Shown here one piece after another: positions 1-46,499 of a stretch of DNA of 46,499 bases; the stretch's first letter is position 1, and each line of letters begins with the position of its first letter. The notes beneath the pieces are model-generated. The model did no database searches. It was not told the DNA's origin and saw only the letters and a list, made by a program, of their open reading frames with translations. The stretch lies in assembly GCA_965233585.1 (NCBI GenBank), contig CBDDTI010000313.1:1-46499 (forward strand). The letters are read 5' to 3'. The position numbers and the translations under genes are program-made. Source of the stretch: a bacterium (GTDB taxonomy: Bacteria > SAR324 > NAC60-12).

Positions 1-193
1 ATTACAATGTATTAATTACAAATAGTTCTTGTGAAACTAGTTCAAAAATAAACAATGGCAACAACAACAGAACCAACTCAGCCCATCAAATGCATTTTTC
101 CACTGCCAGCTGTTGTCATGGCATGTGATGACACAAATCAGTCTGAGCTGAGATATTGCAAAGCATGCCTAAGTCTTTTGCTCAGGCTTCAAA

Positions 194-1476
194 TTAGTCA
201 AACTCCTCCTCAACATAGACCTCCACCATCTCAGAAGAATGCTGAGGCTCTTCAAGTCTTGCCTTCTTGGTGGCTGGACCACAATGTTCAGACTCAGCAC
301 TGGCAGCCTCAGAAGGAACTGCAGCTTCAGGCTGAGGAGGCTCAGAAACTTGATCTTCAGGAATTGGCTTCTGAGCATCTTTCTGCATTTTCTGATGCAG
401 CTCCAGCAAAGTCTGAGGGCTCAGACCAATAGCTGCCATGTGATGCAGAATATCCTGAGCCTGATCTTCTTTTAGCTTCCTCAGTTCCTCCTGAGCCTTT
501 GCCATCTCTTCTTCCTCCTGCTTCTCCTGAGCCACTCTAGCAACTCCAGCATCAACCCTTCCCTGAGCTTCAATGAATTCTTTCCTGAGCTCAGTCAAGA
601 CAGCTTGCTCCTTAGACATCTTCTCAGCATCTTGTAGGAGCATAGCCATAGTCTCATCCTGAGCTGCATAGGCTTTGTCAAGGAGCACAAGCCTCTCAGA
701 GATGAGGACTCCCAGTCTCTCCAAATCTGAGAGATCAGAACCCTCGATGTCCACACCCTTCAGCTGAGACATGGCATCTGCCATGCTGTTCTCAGGGTCA
801 ATAGTGGCAAGAATTGACTTGCAGTACCCCTTAGCAAAGAAAAGCTGGGCCTTCTCAGCATCTGCAGCCTCAAGTGACTGCTCAGGTGACTGAGAATGTT
901 CATCACCTTGAAGTTGCTGAGAAGAAGGATGCCCAGCAGGCTCAGCTGGCCTCTGCTTGTGCTGAAACTGAGCTGTCCCAAAAGATGCTGAGGTTAACCT
1001 CTGCCAAGGCAATGGGGCCATGTTGAGAATCATCTGGTAATACTGAGCAATGACTTTCTTAGGCCACCCATTGACATCCTGCAAGGTTCCAAAAGATGTG
1101 AAGAAAACTTTCAATCAGATATTAAACTTAGTAATTAATTAATTAATTAATCAATTCATTGATGAAGGCCATGCACCCATGCTCAGAGACACAAAGAACA
1201 AATGCATGCACACATGTTCAAACCCATGTCCTTGCAGTAAATGCACCCATTCTGAAATGGGATCCTGCTGAGTTTCACCTTAGCATTGCACCCAGGACAA
1301 GCAACATCAGGCTCTCCATGATAGCGAGGGTAGCTGATAACATGCTCAGGGTTTGATCCCTCACCAAAGAGGTCATCCACTGAGGGAAAGCTTTGAGGAG
1401 TGAGTTTGAGCTGAGCATGGCCACCTCTGATAGTATATTCCATGCCAAGTGGAACTGAGTCAGAGAGCTTTGCCAT
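194..1476 (-). CDS. Accessory gene A (spliced; exons 1476-1231 and 1078-194, ~376 aa): CxxC-x14-CxxC putative Zn-binding motif, coiled coil, basic NLS-like PATKKAR
   Basis: The 97-aa and 306-aa ORFs join in frame (CIYCK|DVNGWP) via an AAG|GA...pyrimidine tract TTGCAG|G intron at 1230-1079. GCC-ATG-GC start. Conserved in the 17.8 kb copy and in a diverged paralog. Confidence 0.7.
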
Positions 1477-1539
1477 GGCTCAGTTGCTGAGTTGCAGATG
1501 GCTGAGCTGGAAGGCAAAAAGTTGACTATGTGCTTGAGT

Positions 1540-1830
1540 TCACTCAGCAGCTGAGGAATCACACAAGCATGCCTTCCTGCACAAATTTGAGCACAAGTCC
1601 AAGACCATGGGCAAGCTGAGAACCAACCCCATACCCCCAGAACCAACCCTGAGTCCTCTGTCAGCATTGCCACCCTTCTGATGCTTCTCCTTCTCAGAGT
1701 CTTCCTTATCCTTCTTCTTCTTCTCAGTGTACTCCCTCAGGAATTCAATGGCCCACTCTATATCGAAGCCATTCTCTTCAATGAATCTGAGCACTCTTTC
1801 ATGAAACTCCTCAGGTGTCTCATCTGCCAT
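1540..1830 (-). CDS. Small acidic/basic hypothetical protein (MADETPEEF..., 96 aa as ORF; 3' part may be intronic)
   Basis: CTGAGCC-ATG-GC start; protein-like N-terminal ~60 aa; same protein at 34930-35220. Confidence 0.5.
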   Translation of the reverse strand: MADETPEEFHERVLRFIEENGFDIEWAIEFLREYTEKKKKDKEDSEKEKHQKGGNADRGLRVGSGGMGLVLSLPMVLDLCSNLCRKACLCDSSAAE

Positions 1831-1903: not shown

Positions 1904-4900
1904 CAATTTTTCAAGGAGATACCTCATGATTGGCTCAGTTACTCAATAATATGAATGTTTGGATGGTACTCTATTGTGCCCAACAGCTTCTTGGTGTTGA
2001 AAAAAATCAAAAAACCTTTCTCCACCTTTCTTTGAGTAAAGCTGGTCCATTTACTTTATAATATTTGTGATAAAGCTTTAAAATGCAAGGTTTTCCAAAT
2101 AATTAGATGCCTTATTAAACCCTTATTAAAAAACAGCACCCAAACAATTTTTCAAGGTGGTACCCCATGAGTGGCTGAGTTACTCAATAATATGAATGTT
2201 TGGATGGTACTCTATTGTGCCCAACAATTTTTGGGGTTGAAAAAAACAAAAACCTTTTCTCCACCTTTCTTTGAGTAAAGCTGGTCCATTTACTTTAGAA
2301 AGCAATATTTGTGATAAAGTTTTAAAATGCAAGGTTTTCCAAATAATTAGATGCCTTATTAAACCCTTATTAAAAAAACAGCATCCAGACAATTTTTCAA
2401 GGTGGTACCCCATGAGTGGCTGAGTTACTCAATAATATGAATGTTTGGATGGTACTCTATTGTTCCCAACAACTTTTTGGGTTGAAAAAAATAAAAACCC
2501 TTTCTCCACCTTTCTTTGAGTAAAGCTGGTCCATTTACTTTAGAAAGCCATATTTGTGTTAAAGCTTGAAGATCCAACCTTTTTCAAATAATTAGTTGTC
2601 TGAAAAAACCATGAATGGCTGAGTTACTCAATAATATGAATGTTTGGATGGTACTCTATTGTGCCCAACAATTTTTGGGGTTGAAAAAAAACAAAAAACC
2701 TTTCTCCACCTTTCTTTGAGTAAAGCTGGTCCATTTACTTTAGAAAGCAATATTTGTGATAAAGCTTTAAAATGCAAAGTTTTCCAAATAATTAGATGCC
2801 TTATTAAACCCTTATTAAAAAACAGCATCCAGACAATTTTTCAAGGTGGTACCCCATGAGTGGCTGAGTTACTCAATAATATGAATGTTTGGATGGTACT
2901 CTATTGTGCCCAACAACTTTTGGGGTTGAAAAAATAAAAACCCTTTCTCCACCTTTCTTTGAGTAAAGCTGGTCCATTTACTTTAGGAAACCATATTTGT
3001 GATAAAGCTTTAAAATGCAAGGTTTTCCAAATAATTAGATGCCTTATTAAACCCTTATTAAAAAACAGCACCCAAACAATTTTTCAAGGTGGTACCCTAT
3101 GAGTGGCTGAGTTACTCAATAATATGAATGTTTGGATGGTACCCTATTGTGCCCAACAAGTTTTGGGGTTGAAAAAAATCCAAAACCATTACTCAACCTT
3201 TCTTTGAGTAAAGCTGGTCCATTTACTTTAGAAAGCCATATTTGTGTTAAAGCTTGAAGATCCAACATTTTGCAAATAATTAGATGTCTGAAAAAACCAT
3301 GAATGGCTGAGTTACTCAATAATATGAATGTTTGGCTGGTGCTCTATTGTGCCCAACAATTTTTGGGGTTGAAAAAAAACAAAAACCCTTTCCCCACCTT
3401 TCTTTGAGTAAAGCTGGTCCATTTACTTTAGAAAGCACTATTTGTGATAAAGTTTTAAAATGCAAGGTTTTCCAAATAATTAGATGCCTTATTAAACCCT
3501 TATTAAAAAACAGCATCCAGACAATTTTTCAAGGTGGTACCCCATGAGTGGCTGAGTTACTCAATAATATGAATGTTTGGATGGTACTCTATTGTGCCCA
3601 ACAACTTTTTGGGTTGAAAAAAATCCAAAACCATTACTCAACCTTTCTTTGAGTAAAGCTGGTCCATTTACTTTAGAAAGCCATATTTGTGTTAAAGCTT
3701 GAAGATCCAACCTTTTCCAAATAATTAGATGTCTGAAAAAACCCTGAATGGCTGAGTTACTCAATAATATGAATGTTTGGATGGTACTCTATTGTGCCCA
3801 ACAATTTTTGGGGTTGAAAAAAAACAAAAACCCTTTCTCCACCTTTCTTTGAGTAAAGCTGGTCCATTTACTTTAGAAAGCAATATTTGTGATAAAGTTT
3901 TAAAATGCAAGGTTTTCCAAATAATTAGATGCCTTATTAAACCCTTATTAAAAAACAGCATCCAGACATTTTTTCAAGGTGGTACCCCATGAGTGGCTGA
4001 GTTACTCAATAATATGAATGTTTGGATGGTGCTCTATTGTGCCCAACAACTTTTTGGGTTGAAAAAAATAAAAACCCTTTCTCCACCTTTCTTTGAGTAA
4101 AGCTGGTCCATTTACTTTAGAAAGCCATATTTGTGTTAAAGCTTGAAGATCCAACCTTTTCCAAATAATTAGATGTCTGAAAAAACCATGAATGGCTGAG
4201 TTACTCAATAATATGAATGTTTGGATGGTACTCTATTGTGCCCAACAATTTTTGGGGTTGAAAAAAAAACAAAAACCCTTTCTCCACCTTTCTTTGAATA
4301 AAGCTGGTCCATTTACTTTGGAAAGCAATATTTGTGATAAAGCTTTAAAATGCAAGGTTTTCCCAAATAATTAGATGCCTTATTAAACCCTTATTTAAAA
4401 ACAGCACCCAAACAATTTTTCAAGGAGATACCTCACGATTGGCTCAGTTACTCAATAATATGAATGTTTGGATGGTACTCTATTGTGCCCAACAGCTTCT
4501 TGGTGTTAAAAAAAAATCAAAAAACCTTTCTCCACCTTTCTTTGAGTAAAGCTGGTCCATTTACTTTATAATATTTGTGATAAAGCTTTAAAATGCAAGG
4601 TTTTCCAAATAATTAGATGCCTTATTAAACCCTTATTAAAAAACAGCACCCAAACAATTTTTCAAGGTGGTGCCCCATGAGTGGCTGAGTTACTCAATAA
4701 TATGAATGTTTGGATGGTACTCTATTGTGCCCAACAATTTTTGGGGTTGAAAAAAAACAAAAACCTTTTCTCCACCTTTCTTTGAGTAAAGCTGGTCCAT
4801 TTACTTTAGAAAGCAATATTTGTGATAAAGTTTTAAAATGCAAGGTTTTCCAAATAATTAGATGCCTTATTAAACCCTTATTAAAAAACAGCATCCAGAC

Positions 4901-7900
4901 AATTTTTCAAGGTGGTACCTCATGAGTGGCTGAGTTACTCAATAATATGAATGTTTGGATGGTACTCTATTGTTCCCAACAACTTTTTGGGTTGAAAAAA
5001 ATAAAAACCCTTTCTCCACCTTTCTTTGAGTAAAGCTGGTCCATTTACTTTAGAAAGCCATATTTGTGTTAAAGCTTGAAGATCCAACCTTTTCCAAATA
5101 ATTAGTTGTCTGAAAAAACCTTGAATGGCTGAGTTACTCAATAATATGAATGTTTGGATGGTACTCTATTGTGCCCAACAATTTTTGGGGTTGAAAAAAA
5201 ACAAAAAACCTTTCTCCACCTTTCTTTGAGTAAAGCTGGTCCATTTACTTTAGAAAGCAATATTTGTGATAAAGCTTTAAAATGCAAGGTTTTCCAAATA
5301 ATTAGATGCCTTATTAAACCCTTATTAAAAAACAGCATCCAGACAATTTTTCAAGGTGGTACCCCATGAGTGGCTGAGTTACTCAATAATATGAATGTTT
5401 GGATGGTACTCTATTGTGCCCAACAACTTTTGGGGTTGAAAAAAATAAAAACCCTTTCTCCACCTTTCTTTGAGTAAAGCTGGTCCATTTACTTTAGAAA
5501 GCCATATTTGTGTTAAAGCTTGAAGATCCAACCTTTTCCAAATAATTAGATGTCTGAAAAAACCATGAATGGCTGAGTTACTCAATAATATGAATGTTTG
5601 GATGGTACTCTATTGTGCCCAACAATTTTTGGGGTTGAAAAAATAAAAACCCTTTCTCCACCTTTCTTTGAGTAAAGCTGGTCCATTTACTTTAGGAAAC
5701 CATATTTGTGATAAAGCTTTAAAATGCAAGGTTTTCCAAATAATTAGATGCCTTATTAAACCCTTATTAAAAAAAACAGCACCCAAACAATTTTTCAAGG
5801 TGGTACCCCATGAGTGGCTGAGTTACTCAATAATATGAATGTTTGGATGGTACCCTATTGTGCCCAACAAGTTTTGGGGTTGAAAAAAATCCAAAACCAT
5901 TACTCAACCTTTCTTTGAGTAAAGCTGGTCCATTTACTTTAGAAAGCCATATTTGTGTTAAAGCTTGAAGATCCAACCTTTTGCAAATAATTAGATGTCT
6001 GAAAAAACCATGAATGGCTGAGTTACTCAATAATATGAATGTTTGGATGGTGCTCTATTGTGCCCAACAATTTTTGGGGTTGAAAAAAAACAAAAACCAT
6101 TTCCCCACCTTTCTTTGAGTAAAGCTGGTCCATTTACTTTAGAAAGCAATATTTGTGATAAAGTTTTAAAATGCAAGGTTTTCCAAATAATTAGATGCCT
6201 TATTAAACCCTTATTAAAAAACAGCATCCAGACAATTTTTCAAGGTGGTACCCCATGAGTGGCTGAGTTACTCAATAATATGAATGTTTGGATGGTACTC
6301 TATTGTGCCCAACAACTTTTTGGGTTGAAAAAAATCCAAAACCATTACTCAACCTTTCTTTGAGTAAAGCTGGTCCATTTACTTTAGAAAGCCATATTTG
6401 TGTTAAAGCTTGAAGATCCAACCTTTTCCAAATAATTAGATGTCTGAAAAAACCATGAATGGCTGAGTTACTCAATAATATGAATGTTTGGATGGTACTC
6501 TATTGTGCCCAACAATTTTTGGGGTTGAAAAAAAAACAAAAACCCTTTCTCCACCTTTCTTTGAGTAAAGCTGGTCCATTTACTTTAGAAAGCAATATTT
6601 GTGATAAAGTTTTAAAACGCATGGTTTTCCAAATAATTAGATGCCTTATTAAACCCTTATTAAAAAACAGCATCCAGACAATTTTTCAAGGTGGTACCCC
6701 ATGAGTGGCTGAGTTACTCAATAATATGAATGTTTGGATGGTACTCTATTGTGCACAACAACTTTTGGGGTTGAAACAAATAAAAATCCTTTCTCCACCT
6801 TTCTTTGAGTAAAGCTGGTCCATTTACTTTAGGAAACCATATTTGTATTAAAGCTTTAAAATGCAAGGTTTTCCAAATAATTAGATGCCTTATTAAACCC
6901 TTATTAAAAAACAGCACCCAAACAATTTTTCAAGGTGGTACCCCATGAGTGGCTGAGTTACTCAATAATATGAGTGTTTGGATGGCACCCTATTGTGCCC
7001 AACAGCTTTTGGGGTTGAAAAAAATCCAAAACCATTTCTCCACCTTTCTTTGAGTAAAGCTGGTCCATTTACTTTAGAAAGCCATATTTGTGCTAAAGCT
7101 TGAAGATCCAACCTTGTCCAAATAACTAGATGTCTGAAAAAACCATGAATGGCTGAGTTACTCAATAATATGAATGTTTGGATGGTACTCTATTGTGCCC
7201 AACAATTTTTGGGGTTGAAAAAAAAAAACAAAAACCCTTTCTCCACCTTTCTTTGAATAAAGCTGGTCCATTTACTTTAGAAAGCAATATTTGTGATAAA
7301 GCTTTAAAATGCAAGGTTTTCCAAATAATTAGATGCCTTATTAAACCCTTATTTAAAAACAGCACCCAAACAATTTTTCAAGGTGGTACCCCATGAGTGG
7401 CTGAGTTACTCAATAATATGAATGTTTGGATGGTACTCTATTGTGCCCAACAACTGTTGGGGTTGAAAAAAATAAAAATCCTTTCTCCACCTTTCTTTGA
7501 GTAAAGCTGGTCCATTTCCTTTAGGAAACCATATTTGTATTAAAGCTTTAAAATGCAAGGTTTTCCAAATAATTAGATGCCTTATTAAACCCTTATTAAA
7601 AAACAGCATCCAGACAATTTTTCAAGGTGGTACCCCATGAGTGGCTGAGTTACTCAATAATATGAATGTTTGGATGGTACTCTATTGTTCCCAACAACTT
7701 TTTGGGTTGAAAAAAATAAAAACCCTTTCTCCACCTTTCTTTGAGTAAAGCTGGTCCATTTACTTTAGAAAGCCATATTTGTGTTAAAGCTTGAAGATCC
7801 AACCTTTTCCAAATAATTAGTTGTCTGAAAAAACATGAATGGCTGAGTTACTCAATAATATGAATGTTTGGATGGTACTCTATTGTGCCCAACAATTTTT

Positions 7901-10900
7901 GGGGTTGAAAAAAACAAAAAACCTTTCTCCACCTTTCTTTGAGTAAAGCTGGTCCATTTACTTTAGAAAGCAATATTTGTGATAAAGCTTTAAAATGCAA
8001 GGTTTTCCAAATAATTAGATGCCTTATTAAACCCTTATTAAAAAACAGCATCCAGACAATTTTTCAAGGTGGTACCCCATGAGTGGCTGAGTTACTCAAT
8101 AATATGAATGTTTGGATGGTACTCTATTGTGCCCAACAACTTTTGGGGTTGAAAAAAACAAAAACCCTTTCTCCACCTTTCCTTTACTAAAGCTGATCCA
8201 TTTGTTTTAGAAATAGATATTTGTGTTAAAGCTGTAAAATGCAAGGTTTTCCAAATAATTAGATGCCTTATTAAACCCTTATTTAAAAACAGCACCCAAG
8301 CAATTTTTCAAGGTGGTACCCCATGAGTGGCTGAGTTACTCAATAATATGAATGTTTGGATGGTACCCTATTGTGCCCAACAACTTTTTGGGGTTGAAAA
8401 AAATCCAAAACCATTACTCAACCTTTCTTTGAGTAAAGCTGGTCCATTTACTTTAGGAAACCATATTTGTGATAAAGCTTGAAGATCCAACCTTTTCCAA
8501 ATAATTAGATGTCTGAAAAAACCATGAATGGCTGAGTTACTCAATAATATGAATGTTTGGATGGTACTCTATTGTGCCCAACAATTTTTGGGGTTGAAAA
8601 AAAACAAAAACCCTTTCTCCACCTTTCTTTGAGTAAAGCTGGTCCATTTACTTTAGAAAGCAATATTTGTGATAAAGTTTTAAAATGCAAGGTTTTCCAA
8701 ATAATTAGATGCCTTATTAAACCCTTATTAAAAAACAGCATCCAGACAATTTTTCAAGGTGGTACCCCATGAGTGGCTGAGTTACTCAATAATATGAATG
8801 TTTGGATGGTACTCTATTGTGCCCAACAACTTTTTGGGTTGAAAAAAATCCAAAACCATTACTCAACCTTTCTTTGAGTAAAGCTGGTCCATTTACTTTA
8901 GAAAGCCATATTTGTGTTAAAGCTTGAAGATCCAACCTTTTCCAAATAATTAGATGTCTGAAAAAACCATGAATGGCTGAGTTACTCAATAATATGAATG
9001 TTTGGATGGTGCTCTATTGTGCCCAACATTTTTTGGGGTTGAAAAAAAACAAAAACCCTTTCTCCACCTTTCTTTGAGTAAAGCTGGTCCATTTACTTTA
9101 GAAAGCAATATTTGTGATAAAGTTTTAAAATGCAAGGTTTTCCAAATAATTAGATGCCTTATTAAACCCTTATTAAAAAACAGCATCCAGACAATTTTTC
9201 AAGGTGGTACCCCATGAGTGGCTGAGTTACTCAATAATATGAATGTTTGGATGGTACTCTATTGTGCCCAACAACTTTTTGGGTTGAAAAAAATAAAAAC
9301 CCTTTCTCCACCGTTCTTTGAGTAAAGCTGGTCCATTTACTTTAGAAAGCCATATTTGTGTTGAAGCTTGAAGATCCAACCTTTTCCAAATAATTAGATG
9401 TCTGAAAAAACCATGAATGGCTGAGTTACTCAATAATATGAATGTTTGGATGGTACTCTATTGTGCCCAACAACTTTTTTGGGGTTGAAAAAAATAAAAA
9501 ACCTTCTCCACCTTTCTTTGAGTAAAGCTGGTCCATTTACTTTAGAAAGCCATATTTGTGTTAAATCTAAATGCAAGGTTTTCCAAATAATTAGATGCCT
9601 TATTAAACCCTTATTAAAAAAACAGCATCCAGACAATTTTTCAAGATGGTACCCCATGAGTGGCTGAGTTACTCAATAGTATGAATGTTTGGATGGTACT
9701 CTATTGTGCCCAACAACTTTGGGTGTTGAAAAAAACAAAAACCCTTTCTCCACCTTTCCTTTAGTAAAGCTGGTCCATTTACTTTAGGAAACCATATTTG
9801 TGATAAAGTTCTAAAACTCTAAAATGCAAGGTTTTCCAAATAATTAGATGCCTTATTAAACCCTTATTAAAAAACAGCACCCAAACAATTTTTCAAGGTG
9901 GTACCCCATGAGTGGCTGAGTTACTCAATAGTATGAATGTTTGGATGGTACTCTATTGTGCCCAACAACTTTGGGTGTTGAAAAAAAACAAAAACCCTTT
10001 CCCCACCTTTCCTTTAGTAAAGCTGGTCCATTTACTTTAGGAAACCATATTTGTGATAAAGTTCTAAAACTCTAAAATGCAAGGTTTTCCAAATAATTAG
10101 ATGCCTTATTAAACCCTTATTAAAAAAACAGCACCCAAACAATTTTTCAAGGTGGTACCCCATGAGTGGCTGAGCTACTCAATAATATGAATGTTTGGAT
10201 GGTACTCTATTGTGCCCAACAACTTTGGGTGTTGAAAAAAACAAAACCCTTTTCTCCACCTTTCTTTGAGTAAAGCTGGTCCATTTACTTTAGGAAACCA
10301 TATTTGTGATAAAGTTCTAAAACTCTAAAATGCAAGGTTTTCCAAATAATTAGATGCCTTATTAAACCCTTTTTAAAAAACAGCACCCAAACAATTTTTC
10401 AAGGTGGTACCCCATGAGTGGCTGAGTTACTCAATAATATGAATGTTTGGATGGTACTCTATTGTGCCCAACAACTTTGGGTGTTGAAAAAAACAAAAAC
10501 CCTTTCTCCACCTTTCCTTTAGTAAAGCTGGTCCATTTACTTTAGGAAACCATATTTGTGATAAAGTTCTAAAACTCTAAAATGCAAGGTTTTCCAAATA
10601 ATTAGATGCCTTATTAAACCCTTATTAAAAAACAGCACCCAAACAATTTTTCAAGGTGGTACCCCATGAGTGGCTGAGTTACTCAATAGTATGAATGTTT
10701 GGATGGTACTCTATTGTGCCCAACAACTTTGGGTGTTGAAAAAAAACAAAAACCCTTTCCCCACCTTTCCTTTAGTAAAGCTGGTCCATTTACTTTAGGA
10801 AACCATATTTGTGATAAAGTTCTAAAACTCTAAAATGCAAGGTTTTCCAAATAATTAGATGCCTTATTAAACCCTTATTAAAAAAACAGCACCCAAACAA

Positions 10901-34866: not shown

Positions 34867-34929
34867 GGCTCAGTTGCTGAGTTGCAGATGGCTGAGCTGG
34901 AAGGCAAAAAGTTGACTATGTGCTTGAGT

Positions 34930-35293: not shown

Positions 35294-38200
35294 CATTTTT
35301 TCAAGGAGATACCTCATGATTGGCTCAGTTACTCAATAATATGAATGTTTGGATGGTACTCTATTGTGCCCAACAGCTTCTTGGTGTTGAAAAAAATCAA
35401 AAAACCTTTCTCCACCTTTCTTTGAGTAAAGCTGGTCCATTTACTTTATAATATTTGTGATAAAGCTTTAAAATGCAAGGTTTTCCAAATAATTAGATGC
35501 CTTATTAAACCCTTATTAAAAAACAGCACCCAAACAATTTTTCAAGGTGGTACCCCATGAGTGGCTGAGTTACTCAATAATATGAATGTTTGGATGGTAC
35601 TCTATTGTGCCCAACAATTTTTGGGGTTGAAAAAAAACAAAAACCTTTTCTCCACCTTTCTTTGAGTAAAGCTGGTCCATTTACTTTAGAAAGCAATATT
35701 TGTGATAAAGTTTTAAAATGCAAGGTTTTCCAAATAATTAGATGCCTTATTAAACCCTTATTAAAAAAAACAGCATCCAGACAATTTTTCAAGGTGGTAC
35801 CCCATGAGTGGCTGAGTTACTCAATAATATGAATGTTTGGATGGTACTCTATTGTTCCCAACAACTTTTTGGGTTGAAAAAAATAAAAACCCTTTCTCCA
35901 CCTTTCTTTGAGTAAAGCTGGTCCATTTACTTTAGAAAGCCATATTTGTGTTAAAGCTTGAAGATCCAACCTTTTTCAAATAATTAGTTGTCTGAAAAAA
36001 CCATGAATGGCTGAGTTACTCAATAATATGAATGTTTGGATGGTACTCTATTGTGCCCAACAATTTTTGGGGTTGAAAAAAACAAAAAACCTTTCTCCAC
36101 CTTTCTTTGAGTAAAGCTGGTCCATTTACTTTAGAAAGCAATATTTGTGATAAAGCTTTAAAATGCAAAGTTTTCCAAATAATTAGATGCCTTATTAAAC
36201 CCTTATTAAAAAACAGCATCCAGACAATTTTTCAAGGTGGTACCCCATGAGTGGCTGAGTTACTCAATAATATGAATGTTTGGATGGTACTCTATTGTGC
36301 CCAACAACTTTTGGGGTTGAAAAAATAAAAACCCTTTCTCCACCTTTCTTTGAGTAAAGCTGGTCCATTTACTTTAGGAAACCATATTTGTGATAAAGCT
36401 TTAAAATGCAAGGTTTTCCAAATAATTAGATGCCTTATTAAACCCTTATTAAAAAACAGCACCCAAACAATTTTTCAAGGTGGTACCCTATGAGTGGCTG
36501 AGTTACTCAATAATATGAATGTTTGGATGGTACCCTATTGTGCCCAACAAGTTTTGGGGTTGAAAAAAATCCAAAACCATTACTCAACCTTTCTTTGAGT
36601 AAAGCTGGTCCATTTACTTTAGAAAGCCATATTTGTGTTAAAGCTTGAAGATCCAACCTTTTGCAAATAATTAGATGTCTGAAAAAACCATGAATGGCTG
36701 AGTTACTCAATAATATGAATGTTTGGCTGGTGCTCTATTGTGCCCAACAATTTTTGGGGTTGAAAAAAAACAAAAACCCTTTCCCCACCTTTCTTTGAGT
36801 AAAGCTGGTCCATTTACTTTAGAAAGCACTATTTGTGATAAAGTTTTAAAATGCAAGGTTTTCCAAATAATTAGATGCCTTATTAAACCCTTATTAAAAA
36901 ACAGCATCCAGACAATTTTTCAAGGTGGTACCCCATGAGTGGCTGAGTTACTCAATAATATGAATGTTTGGATGGTACTCTATTGTGCCCAACAACTTTT
37001 TGGGTTGAAAAAAATCCAAAACCATTACTCAACCTTTCTTTGAGTAAAGCTGGTCCATTTACTTTAGAAAGCCATATTTGTGTTAAAGCTTGAAGATCCA
37101 ACCTTTTCCAAATAATTAGATGTCTGAAAAAACCATGAATGGCTGAGTTACTCAATAATATGAATGTTTGGATGGTACTCTATTGTGCCCAACAATTTTT
37201 GGGGTTGAAAAAAAACAAAAACCCTTTCTCCACCTTTCTTTGAGTAAAGCTGGTCCATTTACTTTAGAAAGCAATATTTGTGATAAAGTTTTAAAATGCA
37301 AGGTTTTCCAAATAATTAGATGCCTTATTAAACCCTTATTAAAAAACAGCATCCAGACAATTTTTCAAGGTGGTACCCCATGAGTGGCTGAGTTACTCAA
37401 TAATATGAATGTTTGGATGGTGCTCTATTGTGCCCAACAACTTTTTGGGTTGAAAAAAATAAAAACCCTTTCTCCACCTTTCTTTGAGTAAAGCTGGTCC
37501 ATTTACTTTAGAAAGCCATATTTGTGTTAAAGCTTGAAGATCCAACCTTTTCCAAATAATTAGATGTCTGAAAAAACCATGAATGGCTGAGTTACTCAAT
37601 AATATGAATGTTTGGATGGTACTCTATTGTGCCCAACAATTTTTGGGGTTGAAAAAAAAACAAAAACCCTTTCTCCACCTTTCTTTGAATAAAGCTGGTC
37701 CATTTACTTTAGAAAGCAATATTTGTGATAAAGCTTTAAAATGCAAGGTTTTCCCAAATAATTAGATGCCTTATTAAACCCTTATTTAAAAACAGCACCC
37801 AAACAATTTTTCAAGGAGATACCTCACGATTGGCTCAGTTACTCAATAATATGAATGTTTGGATGGTACTCTATTGTGCCCAACAGCTTCTTGGTGTTGA
37901 AAAAAATCAAAAAACCTTTCTCCACCTTTCTTTGAGTAAAGCTGGTCCATTTACTTTATAATATTTGTGATAAAGCTTTAAAATGCAAGGTTTTCCAAAT
38001 AATTAGATGCCTTATTAAACCCTTATTAAAAAACAGCACCCAAACAATTTTTCAAGGTGGTACCCCATGAGTGGCTGAGTTACTCAATAATATGAATGTT
38101 TGGATGGTACTCTATTGTGCCCAACAATTTTTGGGGTTGAAAAAAAACAAAAACCTTTTCTCCACCTTTCTTTGAGTAAAGCTGGTCCATTTACTTTAGA

Positions 38201-41200
38201 AAGCAATATTTGTGATAAAGTTTTAAAATGCAAGGTTTTCCAAATAATTAGATGCCTTATTAAACCCTTATTAAAAAACAGCATCCAGACAATTTTTCAA
38301 GGTGGTACCTCATGAGTGGCTGAGTTACTCAATAATATGAATGTTTGGATGGTACTCTATTGTTCCCAACAACTTTTTGGGTTGAAAAAAATAAAAACCC
38401 TTTCTCCACCTTTCTTTGAGTAAAGCTGGTCCATTTACTTTAGAAAGCCATATTTGTGTTAAAGCTTGAAGATCCAACCTTTTCCAAATAATTAGTTGTC
38501 TGAAAAAACCTTGAATGGCTGAGTTACTCAATAATATGAATGTTTGGATGGTACTCTATTGTGCCCAACAATTTTTGGGGTTGAAAAAAAACAAAAAACC
38601 TTTCTCCACCTTTCTTTGAGTAAAGCTGGTCCATTTACTTTAGAAAGCAATATTTGTGATAAAGCTTTAAAATGCAAGGTTTTCCAAATAATTAGATGCC
38701 TTATTAAACCCTTATTAAAAAACAGCATCCAGACAATTTTTCAAGGTGGTACCCCATGAGTGGCTGAGTTACTCAATAATATGAATGTTTGGATGGTACT
38801 CTATTGTGCCCAACAACTTTTGGGGTTGAAAAAAATAAAAACCCTTTCTCCACCTTTCTTTGAGTAAAGCTGGTCCATTTACTTTAGAAAGCAAAAAGTT
38901 TTAAAATGCAAGGTTTTCCAAATAATTAGATGCCTTATTAAACCCTTATTAAAAAACAGCATCCAGACAATTTTTCAAGGTGGTACCCTATGAGTGGCTG
39001 AGTTACTCAATAATATGAATGTTTGGATGGTACCCTATTGTGCCCAAAAGTTTTTTGAAAAAAATCCAAAACCATACTCAACCTTTAGAAAGCCATATTT
39101 GTGTTAAAGCTTGAAGATCCAACCCAAATAATTAGATGTCTGAAAAAACCATGAATGGCTGAGTTACTCAATAATATGAATGTTTGGATGGTACTCTATT
39201 GTGCCCAACAATTTTTGGGGTTGAAAAAAAACAAAAACCCTTTCCCCACCTTTCTTTGAGTAAAGCTGGTCCATTTACTTTAGAAAGCATATTTGTGATA
39301 AAGTTTTAAAATGCAAGGTTTTCCAAATAATTAGATGCCTTATTAAACCCTTATTAAAAAACAGCATCCAGACAATTTTTCAAGGTGGTACCCCATGAGT
39401 GGCTGAGTTACTCAATAATATGAATGTTTGGATGGTACTCTATTGTGCCCAACAACTTTTTGGGTTGAAAAAAATCCAAAACCATTACTCAACCTTTCTT
39501 TGAGTAAAGCTGGTCCATTTACTTTAGAAAGCCATATTTGTGTTAAAGCTTGAAGATCCAACCTTTTCCAAATAATTAGATGTCTGAAAAAACCATGAAT
39601 GGCTGAGTTACTCAATAATATGAATGTTTGGATGGTACTCTATTGTGCCCAACAATTTTTGGGGTTGAAAAAAAACAAAAACCCTTTCTCCACCTTTCTT
39701 TGAGTAAAGCTGGTCCATTTACTTTAGAAAGCAATATTTGTGATAAAGTTTTAAAATGCAAGGTTTTCCAAATAATTAGATGCCTTATTAAACCCTTATT
39801 AAAAAACAGCATCCAGACAATTTTTCAAGGTGGTACCCCATGAGTGGCTGAGTTACTCAATAATATGAATGTTTGGATGGTGCTCTATTGTGCCCAACAA
39901 CTTTTTGGGTTGAAAAAAATAAAAACCCTTTCTCCACCTTTCTTTGAGTAAAGCTGGTCCATTTACTTTAGAAAGCCATATTTGTGTTAAAGCTTGAAGA
40001 TCCAACCTTTTCCAAATAATTAGATGTCTGAAAAAACCATGAATGGCTGAGTTACTCAATAATATGAATGTTTGGATGGTACTCTATTGTGCCCAACAAT
40101 TTTTGGGGTTGAAAAAAAAACAAAAACCCTTTCTCCACCTTTCTTTGAATAAAGCTGGTCCATTTACTTTAGAAAGCAATATTTGTGATAAAGCTTTAAA
40201 ATGCAAGGTTTTCCCAAATAATTAGATGCCTTATTAAACCCTTATTTAAAAACAGCACCCAAACAATTTTTCAAGGAGATACCTCACGATTGGCTCAGTT
40301 ACTCAATAATATGAATGTTTGGATGGTACTCTATTGTGCCCAACAGCTTCTTGGTGTTGAAAAAAAATCAAAAAACCTTTCTCCACCTTTCTTTGAGTAA
40401 AGCTGGTCCATTTACTTTATAATATTTGTGATAAAGCTTTAAAATGCAAGGTTTTCCAAATAATTAGATGCCTTATTAAACCCTTATTAAAAAACAGCAC
40501 CCAAACAATTTTTCAAGGTGGTACCCCATGAGTGGCTGAGTTACTCAATAATATGAATGTTTGGATGGTACTCTATTGTGCCCAACAATTTTTGGGGTTG
40601 AAAAAAAACAAAAACCTTTTCTCCACCTTTCTTTGAGTAAAGCTGGTCCATTTACTTTAGAAAGCAATATTTGTGATAAAGTTTTAAAATGCAAGGTTTT
40701 CCAAATAATTAGATGCCTTATTAAACCCTTATTAAAAAACAGCATCCAGACAATTTTTCAAGGTGGTACCTCATGAGTGGCTGAGTTACTCAATAATATG
40801 AATGTTTGGATGGTACTCTATTGTTCCCAACAACTTTTTGGGTTGAAAAAATAAAAACCCTTTCTCCACCTTTCTTTGAGTAAAGCTGGTCCATTTACTT
40901 TAGAAAGCCATATTTGTGTTAAAGCTTGAAGATCCAACCTTTTCCAAATAATTAGTTGTCTGAAAAAACCTTGAATGGCTGAGTTACTCAATAATATGAA
41001 TGTTTGGATGGTACTCTATTGTGCCCAACAATTTTTGGGGTTGAAAAAAAACAAAAAACCTTTCTCCACCTTTCTTTGAGTAAAGCTGGTCCATTTACTT
41101 TAGAAAGCAATATTTGTGATAAAGCTTTAAAATGCAAGGTTTTCCAAATAATTAGATGCCTTATTAAACCCTTATTAAAAAAACAGCATCCAGACAATTT

Positions 41201-44200
41201 TTCAAGGTGGTACCCCATGAGTGGCTGAGTTACTCAATAATATGAATGTTTGGATGGTACTCTATTGTGCCCAACAACTTTTGGGGTTGAAAAAAATAAA
41301 AACCCTTTCTCCACCTTTCTTTGAGTAAAGCTGGTCCATTTACTTTAGAAAGCCATATTTGTGTTAAAGCTTGAAGATCCAACCTTTTCCAAATAATTAG
41401 ATGTCTGAAAAAACCATGAATGGCTGAGTTACTCAATAATATGAATGTTTGGATGGTACTCTATTGTGCCCAACAATTTTTGGGGTTGAAAAAATAAAAA
41501 CCCTTTCTCCACCTTTCTTTGAGTAAAGCTGGTCCATTTACTTTAGGAAACCATATTTGTGATAAAGCTTTAAAATGCAAGGTTTTCCAAATAATTAGAT
41601 GCCTTATTAAACCCTTATTAAAAAAACAGCACCCAAACAATTTTTCAAGGTGGTACCCCATGAGTGGCTGAGTTACTCAATAATATGAATGTTTGGATGG
41701 TACCCTATTGTGCCCAACAAGTTTTGGGGTTGAAAAAAATCCAAAACCATTACTCAACCTTTCTTTGAGTAAAGCTGGTCCATTTACTTTAGAAAGCCAT
41801 ATTTGTGTTAAAGCTTGAAGATCCAACCTTTTGCAAATAATTAGATGTCTGAAAAAACCATGAATGGCTGAGTTACTCAATAATATGAATGTTTGGATGG
41901 TGCTCTATTGTGCCCAACAATTTTTGGGGTTGAAAAAAAACAAAAACCATTTCCCCACCTTTCTTTGAGTAAAGCTGGTCCATTTACTTTAGAAAGCAAT
42001 ATTTGTGATAAAGTTTTAAAATGCAAGGTTTTCCAAATAATTAGATGCCTTATTAAACCCTTATTAAAAAACAGCATCCAGACAATTTTTCAAGGTGGTA
42101 CCCCATGAGTGGCTGAGTTACTCAATAATATGAATGTTTGGATGGTACTCTATTGTGCCCAACAACTTTTTGGGTTGAAAAAAATCCAAAACCATTACTC
42201 AACCTTTCTTTGAGTAAAGCTGGTCCATTTACTTTAGAAAGCCATATTTGTGTTAAAGCTTGAAGATCCAACCTTTTCCAAATAATTAGATGTCTGAAAA
42301 AACCATGAATGGCTGAGTTACTCAATAATATGAATGTTTGGATGGTACTCTATTGTGCCCAACAATTTTTGGGGTTGAAAAAAAAAAACAAAAACCCTTT
42401 CTCCACCTTTCTTTGAGTAAAGCTGGTCCATTTACTTTAGAAAGCAATATTTGTGATAAAGTTTTAAAACGCATGGTTTTCCAAATAATTAGATGCCTTA
42501 TTAAACCCTTATTAAAAAACAGCATCCAGACAATTTTTCAAGGTGGTACCCCATGAGTGGCTGAGTTACTCAATAATATGAATGTTTGGATGGTACTCTA
42601 TTGTGCACAACAACTTTTGGGGTTGAAACAAATAAAAATCCTTTCTCCACCTTTCTTTGAGTAAAGCTGGTCCATTTACTTTAGGAAACCATATTTGTAT
42701 TAAAGCTTTAAAATGCAAGGTTTTCCAAATAATTAGATGCCTTATTAAACCCTTATTAAAAAACAGCACCCAAACAATTTTTCAAGGTGGTACCCCATGA
42801 GTGGCTGAGTTACTCAATAATATGAGTGTTTGGATGGCACCCTATTGTGCCCAACAGCTTTTGGGGTTGAAAAAAATCCAAAACCATTTCTCCACCTTTC
42901 TTTGAGTAAAGCTGGTCCATTTACTTTAGAAAGCCATATTTGTGCTAAAGCTTGAAGATCCAACCTTGTCCAAATAACTAGATGTCTGAAAAAACCATGA
43001 ATGGCTGAGTTACTCAATAATATGAATGTTTGGATGGTACTCTATTGTGCCCAACAATTTTTGGGGTTGAAAAAAAAACAAAAACCCTTTCTCCACCTTT
43101 CTTTGAATAAAGCTGGTCCATTTACTTTAGAAAGCAATATTTGTGATAAAGCTTTAAAATGCAAGGTTTTCCAAATAATTAGATGCCTTATTAAACCCTT
43201 ATTTAAAAACAGCACCCAAACAATTTTTCAAGGTGGTACCCCATGAGTGGCTGAGTTACTCAATAATATGAATGTTTGGATGGTACTCTATTGTGCCCAA
43301 CAACTGTTGGGGTTGAAAAAAATAAAAATCCTTTCTCCACCTTTCTTTGAGTAAAGCTGGTCCATTTCCTTTAGGAAACCATATTTGTATTAAAGCTTTA
43401 AAATGCAAGGTTTTCCAAATAATTAGATGCCTTATTAAACCCTTATTAAAAAACAGCATCCAGACAATTTTTCAAGGTGGTACCCCATGAGTGGCTGAGT
43501 TACTCAATAATATGAATGTTTGGATGGTACTCTATTGTTCCCAACAACTTTTTGGGTTGAAAAAAATAAAAACCCTTTCTCCACCTTTCTTTGAGTAAAG
43601 CTGGTCCATTTACTTTAGAAAGCCATATTTGTGTTAAAGCTTGAAGATCCAACCTTTTCCAAATAATTAGTTGTCTGAAAAAACATGAATGGCTGAGTTA
43701 CTCAATAATATGAATGTTTGGATGGTACTCTATTGTGCCCAACAATTTTTGGGGTTGAAAAAAAACAAAAAACCTTTCTCCACCTTTCTTTGAGTAAAGC
43801 TGGTCCATTTACTTTAGAAAGCAATATTTGTGATAAAGCTTTAAAATGCAAGGTTTTCCAAATAATTAGATGCCTTATTAAACCCTTATTAAAAAACAGC
43901 ATCCAGACAATTTTTCAAGGTGGTACCCCATGAGTGGCTGAGTTACTCAATAATATGAATGTTTGGATGGTACTCTATTGTGCCCAACAACTTTTGGGGT
44001 TGAAAAAAACAAAAACCCTTTCTCCACCTTTCCTTTACTAAAGCTGATCCATTTGTTTTAGAAATAGATATTTGTGTTAAAGCTGTAAAATGCAAGGTTT
44101 TCCAAATAATTAGATGCCTTATTAAACCCTTATTTAAAAACAGCACCCAAGCAATTTTTCAAGGTGGTACCCCATGAGTGGCTGAGTTACTCAATAATAT

Positions 44201-46499
44201 GAATGTTTGGATGGTACCCTATTGTGCCCAACAACTTTTTGGGGTTGAAAAAAATCCAAAACCATTACTCAACCTTTCTTTGAGTAAAGCTGGTCCATTT
44301 ACTTTAGGAAACCATATTTGTGATAAAGCTTGAAGATCCAACCTTTTCCAAATAATTAGATGTCTGAAAAAACCATGAATGGTTGAGTTACTCAATAATA
44401 TGAATGTTTGGATGGTACTCTATTGTGCCCAACAATTTTTGGGGTTGAAAAAAAAACAAAAACCCTTTCTCCACCTTTCTTTGAGTAAAGCTGGTCCATT
44501 TACTTTAGAAAGCAATATTTGTGATAAAGTTTTAAAATGCAAGGTTTTCCAAATAATTAGATGCCTTATTAAACCCTTATTAAAAAACAGCATCCAGACA
44601 ATTTTTCAAGGTGGTACCCCATGAGTGGCTGAGTTACTCAATAATATGAATGTTTGGATGGTACTCTATTGTGCCCAACAACTTTTTGGGTTGAAAAAAA
44701 TCCAAAACCATTACTCAACCTTTCTTTGAGTAAAGCTGGTCCATTTACTTTAGAAAGCCATATTTGTGTTAAAGCTTGAAGATCCAACCTTTTCCAAATA
44801 ATTAGATGTCTGAAAAAACCATGAATGGCTGAGTTACTCAATAATATGAATGTTTGGATGGTGCTCTATTGTGCCCAACATTTTTTGGGGTTGAAAAAAA
44901 CAAAAACCCTTTCTCCACCTTTCTTTGAGTAAAGCTGGTCCATTTACTTTAGAAAGCAATATTTGTGATAAAGTTTTAAAATGCAAGGTTTTCCAAATAA
45001 TTAGATGCCTTATTAAACCCTTATTAAAAAACAGCATCCAGACAATTTTTCAAGGTGGTACCCCATGAGTGGCTGAGTTACTCAATAATATGAATGTTTG
45101 GATGGTACTCTATTGTGCCCAACAACTTTTTGGGTTGAAAAAAATAAAAACCCTTTCTCCACCGTTCTTTGAGTAAAGCTGGTCCATTTACTTTAGAAAG
45201 CCATATTTGTGTTGAAGCTTGAAGATCCAACCTTTTCCAAATAATTAGATGTCTGAAAAAACCATGAATGGCTGAGTTACTCAATAATATGAATGTTTGG
45301 ATGGTACTCTATTGTGCCCAACAACTTTTTTGGGGTTGAAAAAAATAAAAAACCTTCTCCACCTTTCTTTGAGTAAAGCTGGTCCATTTACTTTAGAAAG
45401 CCATATTTGTGTTAAATCTAAATGCAAGGTTTTCCAAATAATTAGATGCCTTATTAAACCCTTATTAAAAAACAGCATCCAGACAATTTTTCAAGATGGT
45501 ACCCCATGAGTGGCTGAGTTACTCAATAGTATGAATGTTTGGATGGTACTCTATTGTGCCCAACAACTTTGGGTGTTGAAAAAAACAAAAACCCTTTCTC
45601 CACCTTTCCTTTAGTAAAGCTGGTCCATTTACTTTAGGAAACCATATTTGTGATAAAGTTCTAAAACTCTAAAATGCAAGGTTTTCCAAATAATTAGATG
45701 CCTTATTAAACCCTTATTAAAAAACAGCACCCAAACAATTTTTCAAGGTGGTACCCCATGAGTGGCTGAGTTACTCAATAGTATGAATGTTTGGATGGTA
45801 CTCTATTGTGCCCAACAACTTTGGGTGTTGAAAAAAAACAAAAACCCTTTCCCCACCTTTCCTTTAGTAAAGCTGGTCCATTTACTTTAGGAAACCATAT
45901 TTGTGATAAAGTTCTAAAACTCTAAAATGCAAGGTTTTCCAAATAATTAGATGCCTTATTAAACCCTTATTAAAAAACAGCATCCAGACAATTTTTCAAG
46001 GTGGTACCCCATGAGTGGCTGAGTTACTCAATAATATGAATGTTTGGATGGTACTCTATTGTGCCCAACAACTTTTGGGGTTGAAAAAATAAAAACCCTT
46101 TCTCCACCTTTCTTTGAGTAAAGCTGGTCCATTTACTTTAGGAAACCATATTTGTGATAAAGCTTTAAAATGCAAGGTTTTCCAAATAATTAGATGCCTT
46201 ATTAAACCCTTATTAAAAAACAGCACCCAAACAATTTTTCAAGGTGGTACCCTATGAGTGGCTGAGTTACTCAATAATATGAATGTTTGGATGGTACCCT
46301 ATTGTGCCCAACAAGTTTTGGGGTTGAAAAAAATCCAAAACCATTACTCAACCTTTCTTTGAGTAAAGCTGGTCCATTTACTTTAGAAAGCCATATTTGT
46401 GTTAAAGCTTGAAGATCCAACCTTTTGCAAATAATTAGATGTCTGAAAAAACCATGAATGGCTGAGTTACTCAATAATATGAATGTTTGGCTGGTGCTC
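35294..46499. repeat. Satellite array S4 (copy of S1 with one extra ~2.46-kb higher-order unit; runs off the window end)
   Basis: Same monomer-variant order as S1; marker GGAGATACCTCA(T/C)GATTGGCTCAG at ~35.31, 37.82 and 40.28 kb. Confidence 0.97.

What the first reader, a model, noticed from the sequence alone, without database searches (positions are those of the whole stretch)
1..46499. Candidate self-contained system: CENP-B-like transposase/deSUMOylase + its own satellite + nuclear accessory proteins, amplified in tandem
Seen: the same modules (A, satellite, B, transposase) recur head-to-tail in one orientation, and every array lies directly 5' of a gene (transposase, its fragment, or the 96-aa ORF). 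Known: pogo-derived CENP-B binds centromeric higher-order satellite, and Arabidopsis VANDAL elements pair a transposase, an Ulp1-like gene and an anti-silencing protein that targets motifs amplified in internal tandem repeats. Inference: a giant satellite-bearing element with a sequence-specific anti-silencing or centromere-like chromatin function.
Basis: inference. Interest (0 to 1): 0.8.

Follow-up and report, generated by a model that had tools for sequence, protein, structure and literature searches.

The report
Dinoflagellate gene and satellite tandem array
This stretch is not bacterial: it is a piece of a coral-symbiont alga's chromosome in which a broken transposase-like gene and three poorly understood genes alternate with long satellite repeats, an unusual layout that ordinary unequal recombination can explain.

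Summary
The window is a whole 46.5-kb contig. About half of it is four same-strand satellite arrays (monomers about 200, 245 and 253 bp). Duplicated gene modules, all on the minus strand, lie between the arrays, and each array ends at or 74 nt before a start codon.

The DNA is not prokaryotic. It belongs to a Cladocopium-like dinoflagellate and was binned into a bacterial MAG (B proteins are 93-94% identical to C. goreaui proteins).

The large gene carries a C-terminal Ulp1/CE-clan protease domain: profile hit to XopD at E=3.8e-7, with His/Asp/Gln/Cys invariant. Its core looks pogo/DDE_1-like only by language-model features and motifs; HMM searches found nothing. The window's copy is dead, with several frame breaks and one stop.

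The same genes and a related satellite recur on two diverged contigs. Two independent metagenome contigs show the transposase-like gene beside the satellite's conserved roughly 50-bp core. The satellite also occurs on three contigs without these genes.

No element ends, inverted repeats or binding evidence were found. A and A2 show dN/dS above 1 with frame-preserving indels.

Best reading: a one-directional dinoflagellate tandem gene array reshaped by recombination between its satellite spacers. The self-contained anti-silencing or centromere system remains untested.

The parts
197..1479 (-). Gene A, copy 1 (exon 2 at 197-1114, exon 1 at 1186-1479). Orphan protein with a CxxC...CxxC zinc-ribbon-like N-terminus and a coiled-coil-like acidic tail.
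   Evidence: ORFs; 99-100% identical to copy 2; 51 unnamed homologs with no Pfam family.
1543..1830 (-). orf96, a small ORF upstream of A with the same start context as A.
   Evidence: conserved on C102 (81-93% aa) and C352 (47% aa).
1904..11495 (.). Satellite array 1 (9.6 kb). It has a 245/200-bp mix next to orf96 and eight 252-254-bp monomers at the far end (from about 9411).
11680..13494 (-). Gene B, copy 1, with its 3' flank (B3 12321-12695, B2 12695-13222, B1 13237-13494).
   Evidence: 93-94% identical to Cladocopium goreaui 'unnamed protein product' entries.
14845..16234 (-). Gene A2, copy 1 (paralog of A, about 57% aa identity), with an orf96-like remnant at 16094-16234.
16554..17837 (-). 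Gene A, copy 2. ATG at 17834; GT..AG intron of about 110 nt between 17584 and about 17470.
17904..18543 (-). Recombinant junction: the 186-aa N-terminal fragment of TPN (17986-18543) fused to the 3' part of orf96 (17904-18011).
18544..19956 (.). Satellite array 2 (six anchors, 253-bp type only).
19957..21400 (-). B', a copy of B that lacks its 5' part, joined to the 3' end of TPN.
21434..26036 (-). TPN pseudogene. Order of regions: N-terminal region (25077-26036), conserved core (22997-25099), Ulp1-like protease (22017-22979), C-terminal Cys-rich region (21475-21828). It is broken by frame changes near 25080, 23059, 22970 and 21816 and by a TGA at 22014-22016.
26012..27352 (.). Satellite array 3 (six anchors, 253-bp type). 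Its last monomer supplies the TPN start codon.
27537..29317 (-). Gene B, copy 2.
30674..32059 (-). Gene A2, copy 2, with an orf96-like remnant.
32415..34503 (-). Degenerate A-family pieces.
34576..35220 (-). A exon 1 and orf96, copy 3.
35297..46499 (.). Satellite array 4 (more than 11 kb; runs off the contig end). Same composite build as array 1.

Best explanation
The window is nuclear DNA of a Cladocopium-like coral-symbiont dinoflagellate that was binned into a bacterial MAG. It is a one-directional tandem gene array. Contig C102 shows the full repeating unit best: B, a satellite array of long monomers, TPN, a 245/200-bp satellite array, orf96+A, A2, then B again.

TPN belongs to a very large dinoflagellate family of proteins that are probably pogo-type transposase-like and end in a Ulp1-like protease domain. 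The copy in this window is dead.

Unequal and illegitimate recombination multiplies and reshuffles the array, with the satellites as the main substrate. Recombination between the two arrays that flank TPN would delete TPN and leave a fused, composite array, which is what arrays 1 and 4 look like. Other events made the TPN fragment fused to orf96 and the truncated B'.

The monomers are amplified copies of the sequence just upstream of, and including, the start codon of the following gene. I infer, without direct evidence, that their conserved roughly 50-bp core is a cis element for expression of the downstream unit (promoter or leader).

Shown: the anatomy, the host, the Ulp1 domain, the pseudogene state and the linkage. 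Inferred: the recombination history, the pogo-type fold and the role of the core.
For: Host:
- 589 of 747 contigs (5.97 Mb) have under 30% long-ORF cover, against 0.79-0.87 for the largest contigs.
- The named TPN relatives are all Symbiodiniaceae.
- B is 93-94% identical to C. goreaui proteins.
- 18 public runs from 9 studies hold at least half of the TPN stretch's sampled words; their readable labels say coral metagenome.

Array anatomy and its repetition on C102 and C352.

Array types:
- Arrays upstream of TPN hold only long monomers (253 bp in the window, about 243 bp on C102).
- Arrays upstream of orf96/A hold a 245/200 mix near the gene and long monomers at the far end.
- C102 keeps the order B, array, TPN, 245/200 array, A.

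Phase at gene starts: the monomer begins with the same roughly 16 nt, ATG included, as the TPN coding sequence. Relative P0003 starts with the same residues.

Conserved core: it is kept in satellite variants that otherwise share nothing. All 69 copies in the window lie inside arrays, on the gene strand.

Ulp1 domain.

Family size: 2056 clusters at E<=1e-3.

Selection on TPN: dN/dS of the core is 0.31-0.47.

Pseudogene state. Contigs from other runs differ at these breaks: the stop codon reads TCA in 4 of 4 runs, one A fewer at 23059 in 4 of 4, and two extra bases near 25080 in 3 of 4.

Literature: tandem arrays made by unequal crossing-over are standard in dinoflagellates (PMC11453091, passages read).
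Against: - Three gene families and the satellite stay linked across copies that differ by up to about 50% in protein sequence (C352). Plain drift would be expected to erode that linkage.
- A and A2 show dN/dS of 1.45 (P=0.05) and 2.29 (P=0.006). Their exon indels are all multiples of three, and the A exon 2 is more diverged (90.3% identity) than its flanking spacer (95.8%). This points to a conflict-type function that this explanation does not account for.
- Nothing shows that the core acts as a promoter. Contigs from RNA libraries cannot prove transcription.
- The recombination history is inferred from three contigs that may be paralogs of one ancestral locus.
Confidence: 0.6

Rival explanations
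1. One reading: a self-contained, possibly mobile composite element. TPN, the fast-evolving proteins A/A2 (and B) and 'their' satellite spread as one unit. One of the proteins binds the conserved core to counter silencing, as VANC does in VANDAL elements.
For: - The gene set and satellite family recur together on C313, C102 and C352 at decreasing identity.
- TPN lies beside the core on the independent contigs L010 and L011.
- A2 has dN/dS of 2.29 with frame-preserving indels.
- The core is conserved across satellite variants.
- VANC targets are tandem repeats in non-coding parts of VANDAL elements, including the region upstream of VANA21 (PMC5735166, passages read).
- Transposases with a C-terminal Ulp1 domain are known (PMC2836005, passages read).
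Against: - No inverted repeats or ends in the window.
- Arrays flank TPN as direct repeats, not inverted ones.
- L011 has no A or B homolog within 8 kb downstream of TPN.
- The order differs on C352, where B lies directly upstream of A.
- 3 of 8 satellite-bearing contigs lack the genes.
- TPN copies on all three contigs have frame breaks.
- The three linked loci may be segmental duplicates and therefore not independent.
Confidence: 0.15
2. TPN is a domesticated, CENP-B-like satellite-binding protein, and the arrays mark a centromere-like or other architectural chromatin domain of the dinoflagellate chromosome.
For: Pogo-type similarity from language-model features. Purifying selection on the core. 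Higher-order 445-bp repeat structure of the arrays.
Against: The family has 2056 clusters at 50% identity, which looks like a proliferating element rather than a single host gene. The local copies are broken. The arrays are short (1.3 to over 11 kb) and interleaved with genes. There is no data on chromosome position. The satellite dimer has no unusual DNA fold (z = -0.51).
Confidence: 0.05
3. The layout is an assembly artefact, either a mis-joined repeat graph or a chimera of strains.
For: The contig comes from a metagenome bin. In the four other runs that were laid on the stretch, no contig bridges the TPN/B' junction at 21400. Those runs are short-contig assemblies, which break at repeats anyway.
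Against: Duplicates differ by 0.4-2% with their own substitutions and indels. A diverged contig (C102) shows the same order of modules and the same array-to-gene junctions. Relative P0003, from another assembly, starts at the same satellite-borne ATG.
Confidence: 0.04

Closest known systems
One-directional tandem gene arrays of dinoflagellates (PMC11453091 and PMC9412976, passages read)
   Same: The genes are co-oriented and repeated head to tail. Unequal crossing-over is the usual explanation. The host here is a Cladocopium-like Symbiodiniaceae.
   Different: The unit holds several unrelated genes. The spacers are kilobase-scale satellite arrays with a higher-order period and a conserved core. 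One member is transposase-like. 'Satellite' occurs 0 times in PMC9412976 and 'centromere' 0 times in PMC11453091 (word searches).
Transposases with a C-terminal Ulp1 protease domain: Ginger1 and some Mutator elements (PMC2836005, passages read)
   Same: One long protein joins a transposase-like core to a C-terminal Ulp1/C48 domain with an intact catalytic set.
   Different: The core here is neither integrase-like nor Mutator-like; its nearest neighbours by language-model features are pogo/DDE_1. No terminal inverted repeats were found. There is an additional C-terminal Cys-rich motif.
pogo/Tigger transposases and CENP-B (PMC7386202 and PMC4231638, search listing and abstracts only)
   Same: The order of two helix-turn-helix-like stretches followed by an acidic-residue core with a 'TS.LQ..D......FK'-type motif (motif recalled from memory). 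Physical association with a satellite.
   Different: No HMM match above threshold. No TIRs or TA duplications found. Fused to Ulp1. No evidence that it binds the satellite.
VANDAL elements with the VANC anti-silencing protein (PMC5735166, passages read)
   Same: A transposase-type gene, Ulp1-type sequence, fast-evolving accessory genes, and short motifs amplified as tandem repeats upstream of the element's genes.
   Different: A different transposase class. The arrays are far longer. No VANC-like domain was found. No methylation or binding data exist. That VANB is the Ulp1-like gene of VANDAL is recalled, not seen in the paper ('Ulp1' occurs 0 times).
Spacer-promoter repeats in rDNA intergenic spacers of Xenopus and Drosophila (recalled; no paper read)
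   Same: Tandem sub-repeats upstream of a gene that each copy its start region and end in phase at the gene.
   Different: Those serve RNA polymerase I genes. Here the genes are protein-coding, and promoter activity is untested.

Membership tests
Ulp1 / peptidase C48 (CE clan) protease | Profile-level sequence match to known members | tested here: met
   A profile of 9 sequences hits XopD (2oiv E=3.8e-7; 5jp1 6.7e-7), NopD (9e-6), RickCE (0.004), SENP8 (0.012) and SENP5 (0.027). Pfam C48 passes its cut-off in 2 of 35 relatives. The window's own copy scores only E=0.03.
Ulp1 / peptidase C48 (CE clan) protease | Catalytic His, Asp and Cys plus the oxyanion Gln | tested here: met
   H238/W239, D259, Q294 and C301 are invariant in 9 of 9 aligned sequences and align with the XopD motifs.
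pogo / DDE_1 (CENP-B-type) transposase | Match to the DDE_1 model | tested here: not met
   Pfam DDE_1 hits: 0 of 12 window ORFs, 0 of 9, 1 of 54 (E=0.11), 0 of 35 and 0 of 52 relatives. A six-frame search of the assembly found 0. Only the language-model search points to DDE_1 (score 0.92, 176 shared features, all ten best named hits).
pogo / DDE_1 (CENP-B-type) transposase | Conserved acidic triad with about 35 residues between the second and third residue | tested here: inconclusive
   E313 (42 of 45), D385 (44 of 46) and D421 (43 of 45) are conserved, with spacings of 72 and 36 residues. Assigning them to the triad is my reading.
pogo / DDE_1 (CENP-B-type) transposase | N-terminal CENP-B/Tc5-type helix-turn-helix domains | tested here: inconclusive
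   HTH_Tnp_Tc5 in 1 of 52 relatives at E=0.008, below its cut-off. 0 of 11 N-terminal regions match, and the N-terminal profile has no PDB hit.
pogo / DDE_1 (CENP-B-type) transposase | Terminal inverted repeats flanking the gene | tested here: not met
   The only inverted matches between 11400 and 35400 are (TAAT)n runs. The flanking arrays are direct repeats.
pogo / DDE_1 (CENP-B-type) transposase | RNase H-like fold of the core | not tested
   Structure prediction was not accepting jobs at any of five tries.
Satellite DNA with higher-order repeats | Long head-to-tail arrays of a monomer family with a higher-order period | tested here: met
   104 anchors in four arrays; 445-bp (245+200) period; within-class identity 0.97-0.99.
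Dinoflagellate one-directional tandem gene array | Dinoflagellate origin, co-oriented genes, tandem duplication | tested here: met
Dinoflagellate one-directional tandem gene array | Spliced-leader trans-splicing of the transcripts | not testable with these tools
   No relic of the spliced leader in the window (motif recalled). The contigs from RNA libraries cannot show 5' ends.
VANDAL-like anti-silencing system | An accessory protein binds motifs amplified in the element's tandem repeats and removes silencing | not testable with these tools
   Only circumstantial: a conserved core and fast-evolving A/A2.
Centromeric satellite with a CENP-B-type binder | One array cluster per chromosome at the kinetochore site | not testable with these tools
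   Only fragments of the host genome are held: 8 satellite-bearing contigs.

The most novel reading that the evidence does not exclude
A dinoflagellate chromatin-conflict module. A transposase-derived protein with a deSUMOylase domain, together with the positively selected orphan proteins A and A2, acts on a roughly 50-bp core that has been amplified into satellite arrays upstream of their own genes. This would be a protist counterpart of VANDAL-type anti-silencing or of satellite/binding-protein arms races, in a nucleus that lacks ordinary nucleosomal chromatin.
Probability: 0.1. Interest if true: 0.75.

Novelty: new variant of a known kind. Interest (0 to 1): 0.4.

Why it matters
First, it flags that about half of this 'bacterial' genome record is algal DNA. 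Anything else scanned from its small, low-coding contigs should be read as eukaryotic.

Second, it describes a very large dinoflagellate protein family (2056 clusters) that joins a probable pogo-type core to a Ulp1-like protease. Pfam does not recognise the core. I found no paper on the family in three searches.

Third, dinoflagellate promoters, spacers and centromeres are poorly known. A satellite whose monomers end in phase at start codons, and whose core is conserved across diverged variants, gives a concrete sequence to test for promoter, trans-splicing or protein-binding activity.

Tried and rejected
- Structure prediction of the TPN core was not accepted, so no fold search was run. The pogo-type fold stays untested.
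- Pfam on the window ORFs and on 150 relatives gave no usable family for the core, the N-terminus, A or B.
- PDB profile searches found nothing for the core or the N-terminus. A single-sequence search with the Ulp region found nothing.
- The DDE_1 model found nothing in the assembly or in 88 genomes of the bacterial phylum. I had hoped to obtain exemplars for a profile-profile comparison.
- The protein-atlas search gave no usable hit for A.
- Rfam found no RNA family in 9000-28000.
- There is no spliced-leader relic in the window.
- The satellite dimer has no unusual DNA fold.
- There are no inverted repeats other than (TAAT)n.
- Viral contigs hold no TPN relative and no copy of the core.
- GTDB contigs gave one 1.5-kb locus that was too short to use.
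- Earlier scan notes hold nothing similar.
- In the four runs laid on 19957-26040, no contig bridges the TPN/B' junction at 21400. Two contigs leave the window sequence at 25971, just before array 3. Short-read contigs break at repeats, so this neither supports nor refutes the layout.
- No intron-like joint was seen in TPN. A 104-nt skip (24486 to 24591) in three runs lies in the low-complexity part and looks like a length variant.
- I considered a programmed frameshift at the N-terminus/core boundary, because C313 and C352 both change frame there. I set it aside because C102 and P0003 read straight through.
- I could not fully resolve the indels near 22965-22972 from the rows shown.
Full report
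What is in the window. The window is the whole of contig C313 in an assembly of 12.0 Mb and 747 contigs. About half of it is satellite. There are four arrays in one orientation, at 1904-11495, 18544-19956, 26012-27352, and 35297 to the contig end. GC is 0.33-0.34 in the arrays and 0.45-0.52 between them. I found 104 monomer anchors and classed 100 monomers: 54 of about 245 bp, 31 of about 200 bp and 15 of about 253 bp. The 200-bp form lacks the last 45 bp, and the 253-bp form has 8 extra bases. Alternating 245- and 200-bp monomers give the 445-bp higher-order period.

Gene modules. All open reading frames of note lie on the minus strand between the arrays. Self-BLAST shows nested segmental duplications at 96.7-99.6% identity. 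The modules are orf96+A (three copies, one of them degenerate), A2 (two), B (two, plus one that lacks its 5' part), one long gene that I call TPN (21434-26036), and a 186-aa TPN fragment fused to the tail of orf96. Each of the 4 arrays ends at a gene start. The ATG of TPN and of its fragment is the ATG of the last monomer, and the ATG of orf96 lies 74 nt past the array.

Whose DNA it is. The assembly is filed as a bacterium; earlier notes of this scan call it SAR324-like. However, 589 of its 747 contigs (5.97 Mb) have under 30% cover by long ORFs, while the largest contigs have 0.79-0.87. The named relatives of TPN are all from Symbiodiniaceae: Durusdinium trenchii, Symbiodinium natans and an entry labelled 'Skav'. 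B is 93-94% identical to 'unnamed protein product' entries of Cladocopium goreaui. Public runs that hold the TPN stretch are labelled coral metagenome wherever the label is readable: 18 runs hold at least half of its sampled words, across 9 studies, and 7 rows are RNA libraries. The window is nuclear DNA of a Cladocopium-like dinoflagellate that was binned with a bacterium.

The large gene. Relatives show a protein of about 1,000-1,490 aa. It has an N-terminal region, a conserved core, a C-terminal Ulp1-like domain and a Cys-rich tail.

The Ulp1 domain is solid. A nine-sequence profile hits the CE-clan proteases XopD (E=3.8e-7), NopD, RickCE, SENP8 and SENP5. His, Asp, Gln and Cys are invariant in 9 of 9 sequences. 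Pfam C48 passes its cut-off in 2 of 35 relatives.

The 'pogo/CENP-B-like' core is only probable. The protein-atlas search puts it next to DDE_1 clusters (score 0.92, 176 shared features, all ten best named hits). E313, D385 and D421 are conserved, with 36 residues between the last two. The stretch around D421 resembles, from my memory, the pogo 'TS.LQ..D......FK' motif. Against this, DDE_1 appears in 1 of 54 relatives at E=0.11 and in none of 87 others. HTH_Tnp_Tc5 appears in 1 of 52 at E=0.008. PDB profile searches found nothing for the core or the N-terminus.

The family is very large, with 2056 clusters at E<=1e-3 and 471 at E<=1e-30. Transposases with a C-terminal Ulp1 domain are already known in Ginger1 and Mutator elements (PMC2836005, passages read).

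The window's copy is dead. Compared with relatives that read straight through (P0003, 1000 aa), the frame changes near 25080, 23059, about 22970 and 21816, and there is a TGA at 22014-22016. In contigs from four other public runs the stop codon reads TCA (4 of 4), the A-run at 23059 is one base shorter (4 of 4), and two extra bases stand near 25080 (3 of 4). One RNA-library contig matches the window across 25080, so that break is real rather than an assembly error. The copies on C102 and C352 also carry two and one frame changes. Between copies the core is under purifying selection (dN/dS 0.47 and 0.31), and the N-terminus less so (0.62).

The neighbours. A is about 390 aa: exon 1 has a CxxC...CxxC pattern, a GT..AG intron follows, and the tail is a long acidic, coiled-coil-like stretch ending in a KKAR motif. 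It has 51 unnamed homologs, no Pfam family and no atlas neighbour. B is about 270 aa in C. goreaui gene models and has a hydrophobic N-terminus. The label 'nuclear accessory proteins' is therefore unsupported.

Between C313 and C102, A has dN/dS of 1.45 (bootstrap P=0.05), A2 has 2.29 (P=0.006) and B has 1.25 (not significant). Every indel in the A and A2 exons is a multiple of three (15, 9, 12 and 9, 18, 3, 3). Indels in the A-A2 spacer measure 1, 4, 2, 1, 1 and 4. The A exon 2 is more diverged (90.3% identity) than that spacer (95.8%). These are real, fast-evolving genes. The test is pairwise and based on few synonymous changes.

Linkage beyond the window. In the same assembly the gene set recurs on C102 (77-92% aa identity) and C352 (45-76%). 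A-family genes alone also lie on C615 and C138 (30-47%). On all of these, arrays with periods of about 200, 250 and 450 bp stand between the genes, in the same orientation relative to them.

The satellite family occurs on 8 contigs. C313, C102 and C287 are 89-94% alike. C352, C524, C615, C606 and C138 share only a roughly 50-90-bp core. In the window all 69 copies of a 20-nt part of that core lie inside arrays.

Two independent metagenome contigs show TPN beside the core. In L010 (TPN 88% identical) the core lies just 3' of the gene. In L011 (59% identical) a 212-bp array lies 3' of the gene and a partial core 5' of it. Against a closed system: C287, C524 and C606 carry the satellite without these genes. 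L011 has no A or B homolog in the 8 kb downstream of TPN. On C352, B sits directly upstream of A.

How it most likely works. C102 keeps the order B, array of long monomers, TPN, 245/200 array, orf96+A, A2. In the window the arrays upstream of TPN and its fragment contain only 253-bp monomers. Arrays 1 and 4, upstream of orf96, are composite, with a 245/200 mix near the gene and 252-254-bp monomers at the far end. The simplest history is that TPN sits between two direct arrays and is lost when they recombine, which leaves one fused array. Other illegitimate joins made the TPN-orf96 fusion at about 18006 and the junction of the TPN 3' end with the middle of B at 21400-21434. This is the unequal crossing-over usually invoked for dinoflagellate tandem arrays (PMC11453091, passages read).

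The monomer starts, on the gene strand, with the same roughly 16 nt as the TPN coding sequence, ATG included, and with about 30 nt of the orf96 leader. The satellite is therefore an amplified copy of the genes' start region. That its conserved core serves expression of the downstream unit is an inference. That it is a binding site for TPN or A is the rival reading. Nothing here decides between them.

Comparison with known systems, and novelty. The closest known kinds are dinoflagellate tandem gene arrays, transposase-Ulp1 fusions, and transposon-linked tandem repeats such as the VANC targets of VANDAL elements (PMC5735166, passages read). None has this combination. Searches for dinoflagellate + Ulp1 + transposase, dinoflagellate + pogo/Tigger/DDE, and Symbiodinium + Ulp1 found no paper on it. 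'Satellite' occurs 0 times in the C. goreaui genome paper. I class it as a new variant of a known kind.

Verdict. The anatomy is real and well defined. The host assignment changes the frame of reference. The protease domain is confirmed, and the pogo label is probable. The 'self-contained anti-silencing or centromere system' is an untested idea to which I give about 10-15%. Interest is moderate (0.4).

Noticed in passing
whole assembly G000: About 6 Mb of the 12-Mb 'bacterial' genome (589 of 747 contigs) has eukaryote-like low ORF density. The record looks like a chimeric bin of a bacterium and Cladocopium-like DNA, although marker-gene contamination is reported as 2%.
   Followed up: partly
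G000 contig C606, 3-2550 and 12664-17223: ORFs that by eye resemble a protein-primed family-B DNA polymerase and an integrase (Polinton/Maverick-like?) lie next to a 214-bp satellite that shares the core motif. No family search was run on them.
   Followed up: no
G000 contig C287, 9114-13613: A 1500-aa ORF that looks retroelement-like by eye, on a contig that carries 12.8 kb of the same satellite but none of the A, B or TPN genes.
   Followed up: no
window 25077-25084; C352 about 27494-27504: Two diverged TPN copies change frame at the same A-rich spot between the N-terminal region and the core, while C102 and relative P0003 read through. This is probably an indel hot spot. A programmed frameshift was not excluded.
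   Followed up: partly
window 12174-12246, 20449-20518, 28033-28110, 17477-17524: (TAAT)n microsatellites recur in the 3' flank of B and in the A and A2 introns. They are the only inverted-repeat matches in the gene region.
   Followed up: no
window 24486-24591: Contigs of three other runs skip 104 nt inside the Ser/Pro/Gln-rich low-complexity part of TPN. This looks like a length variant between copies rather than an intron.
   Followed up: no
window 16412-16789 (+), also 55-432 and 32237-32614: A 125-aa ORF runs antisense to the 3' end of A exon 2 in all three copies. No homology search was done, and it may be a by-product of the biased composition.
   Followed up: no
protein P0112 (A-family relative): One source names a 175-aa A-family fragment 'DNA-nicking Smr family endonuclease'. 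No Pfam family supports this name for A.
   Followed up: no
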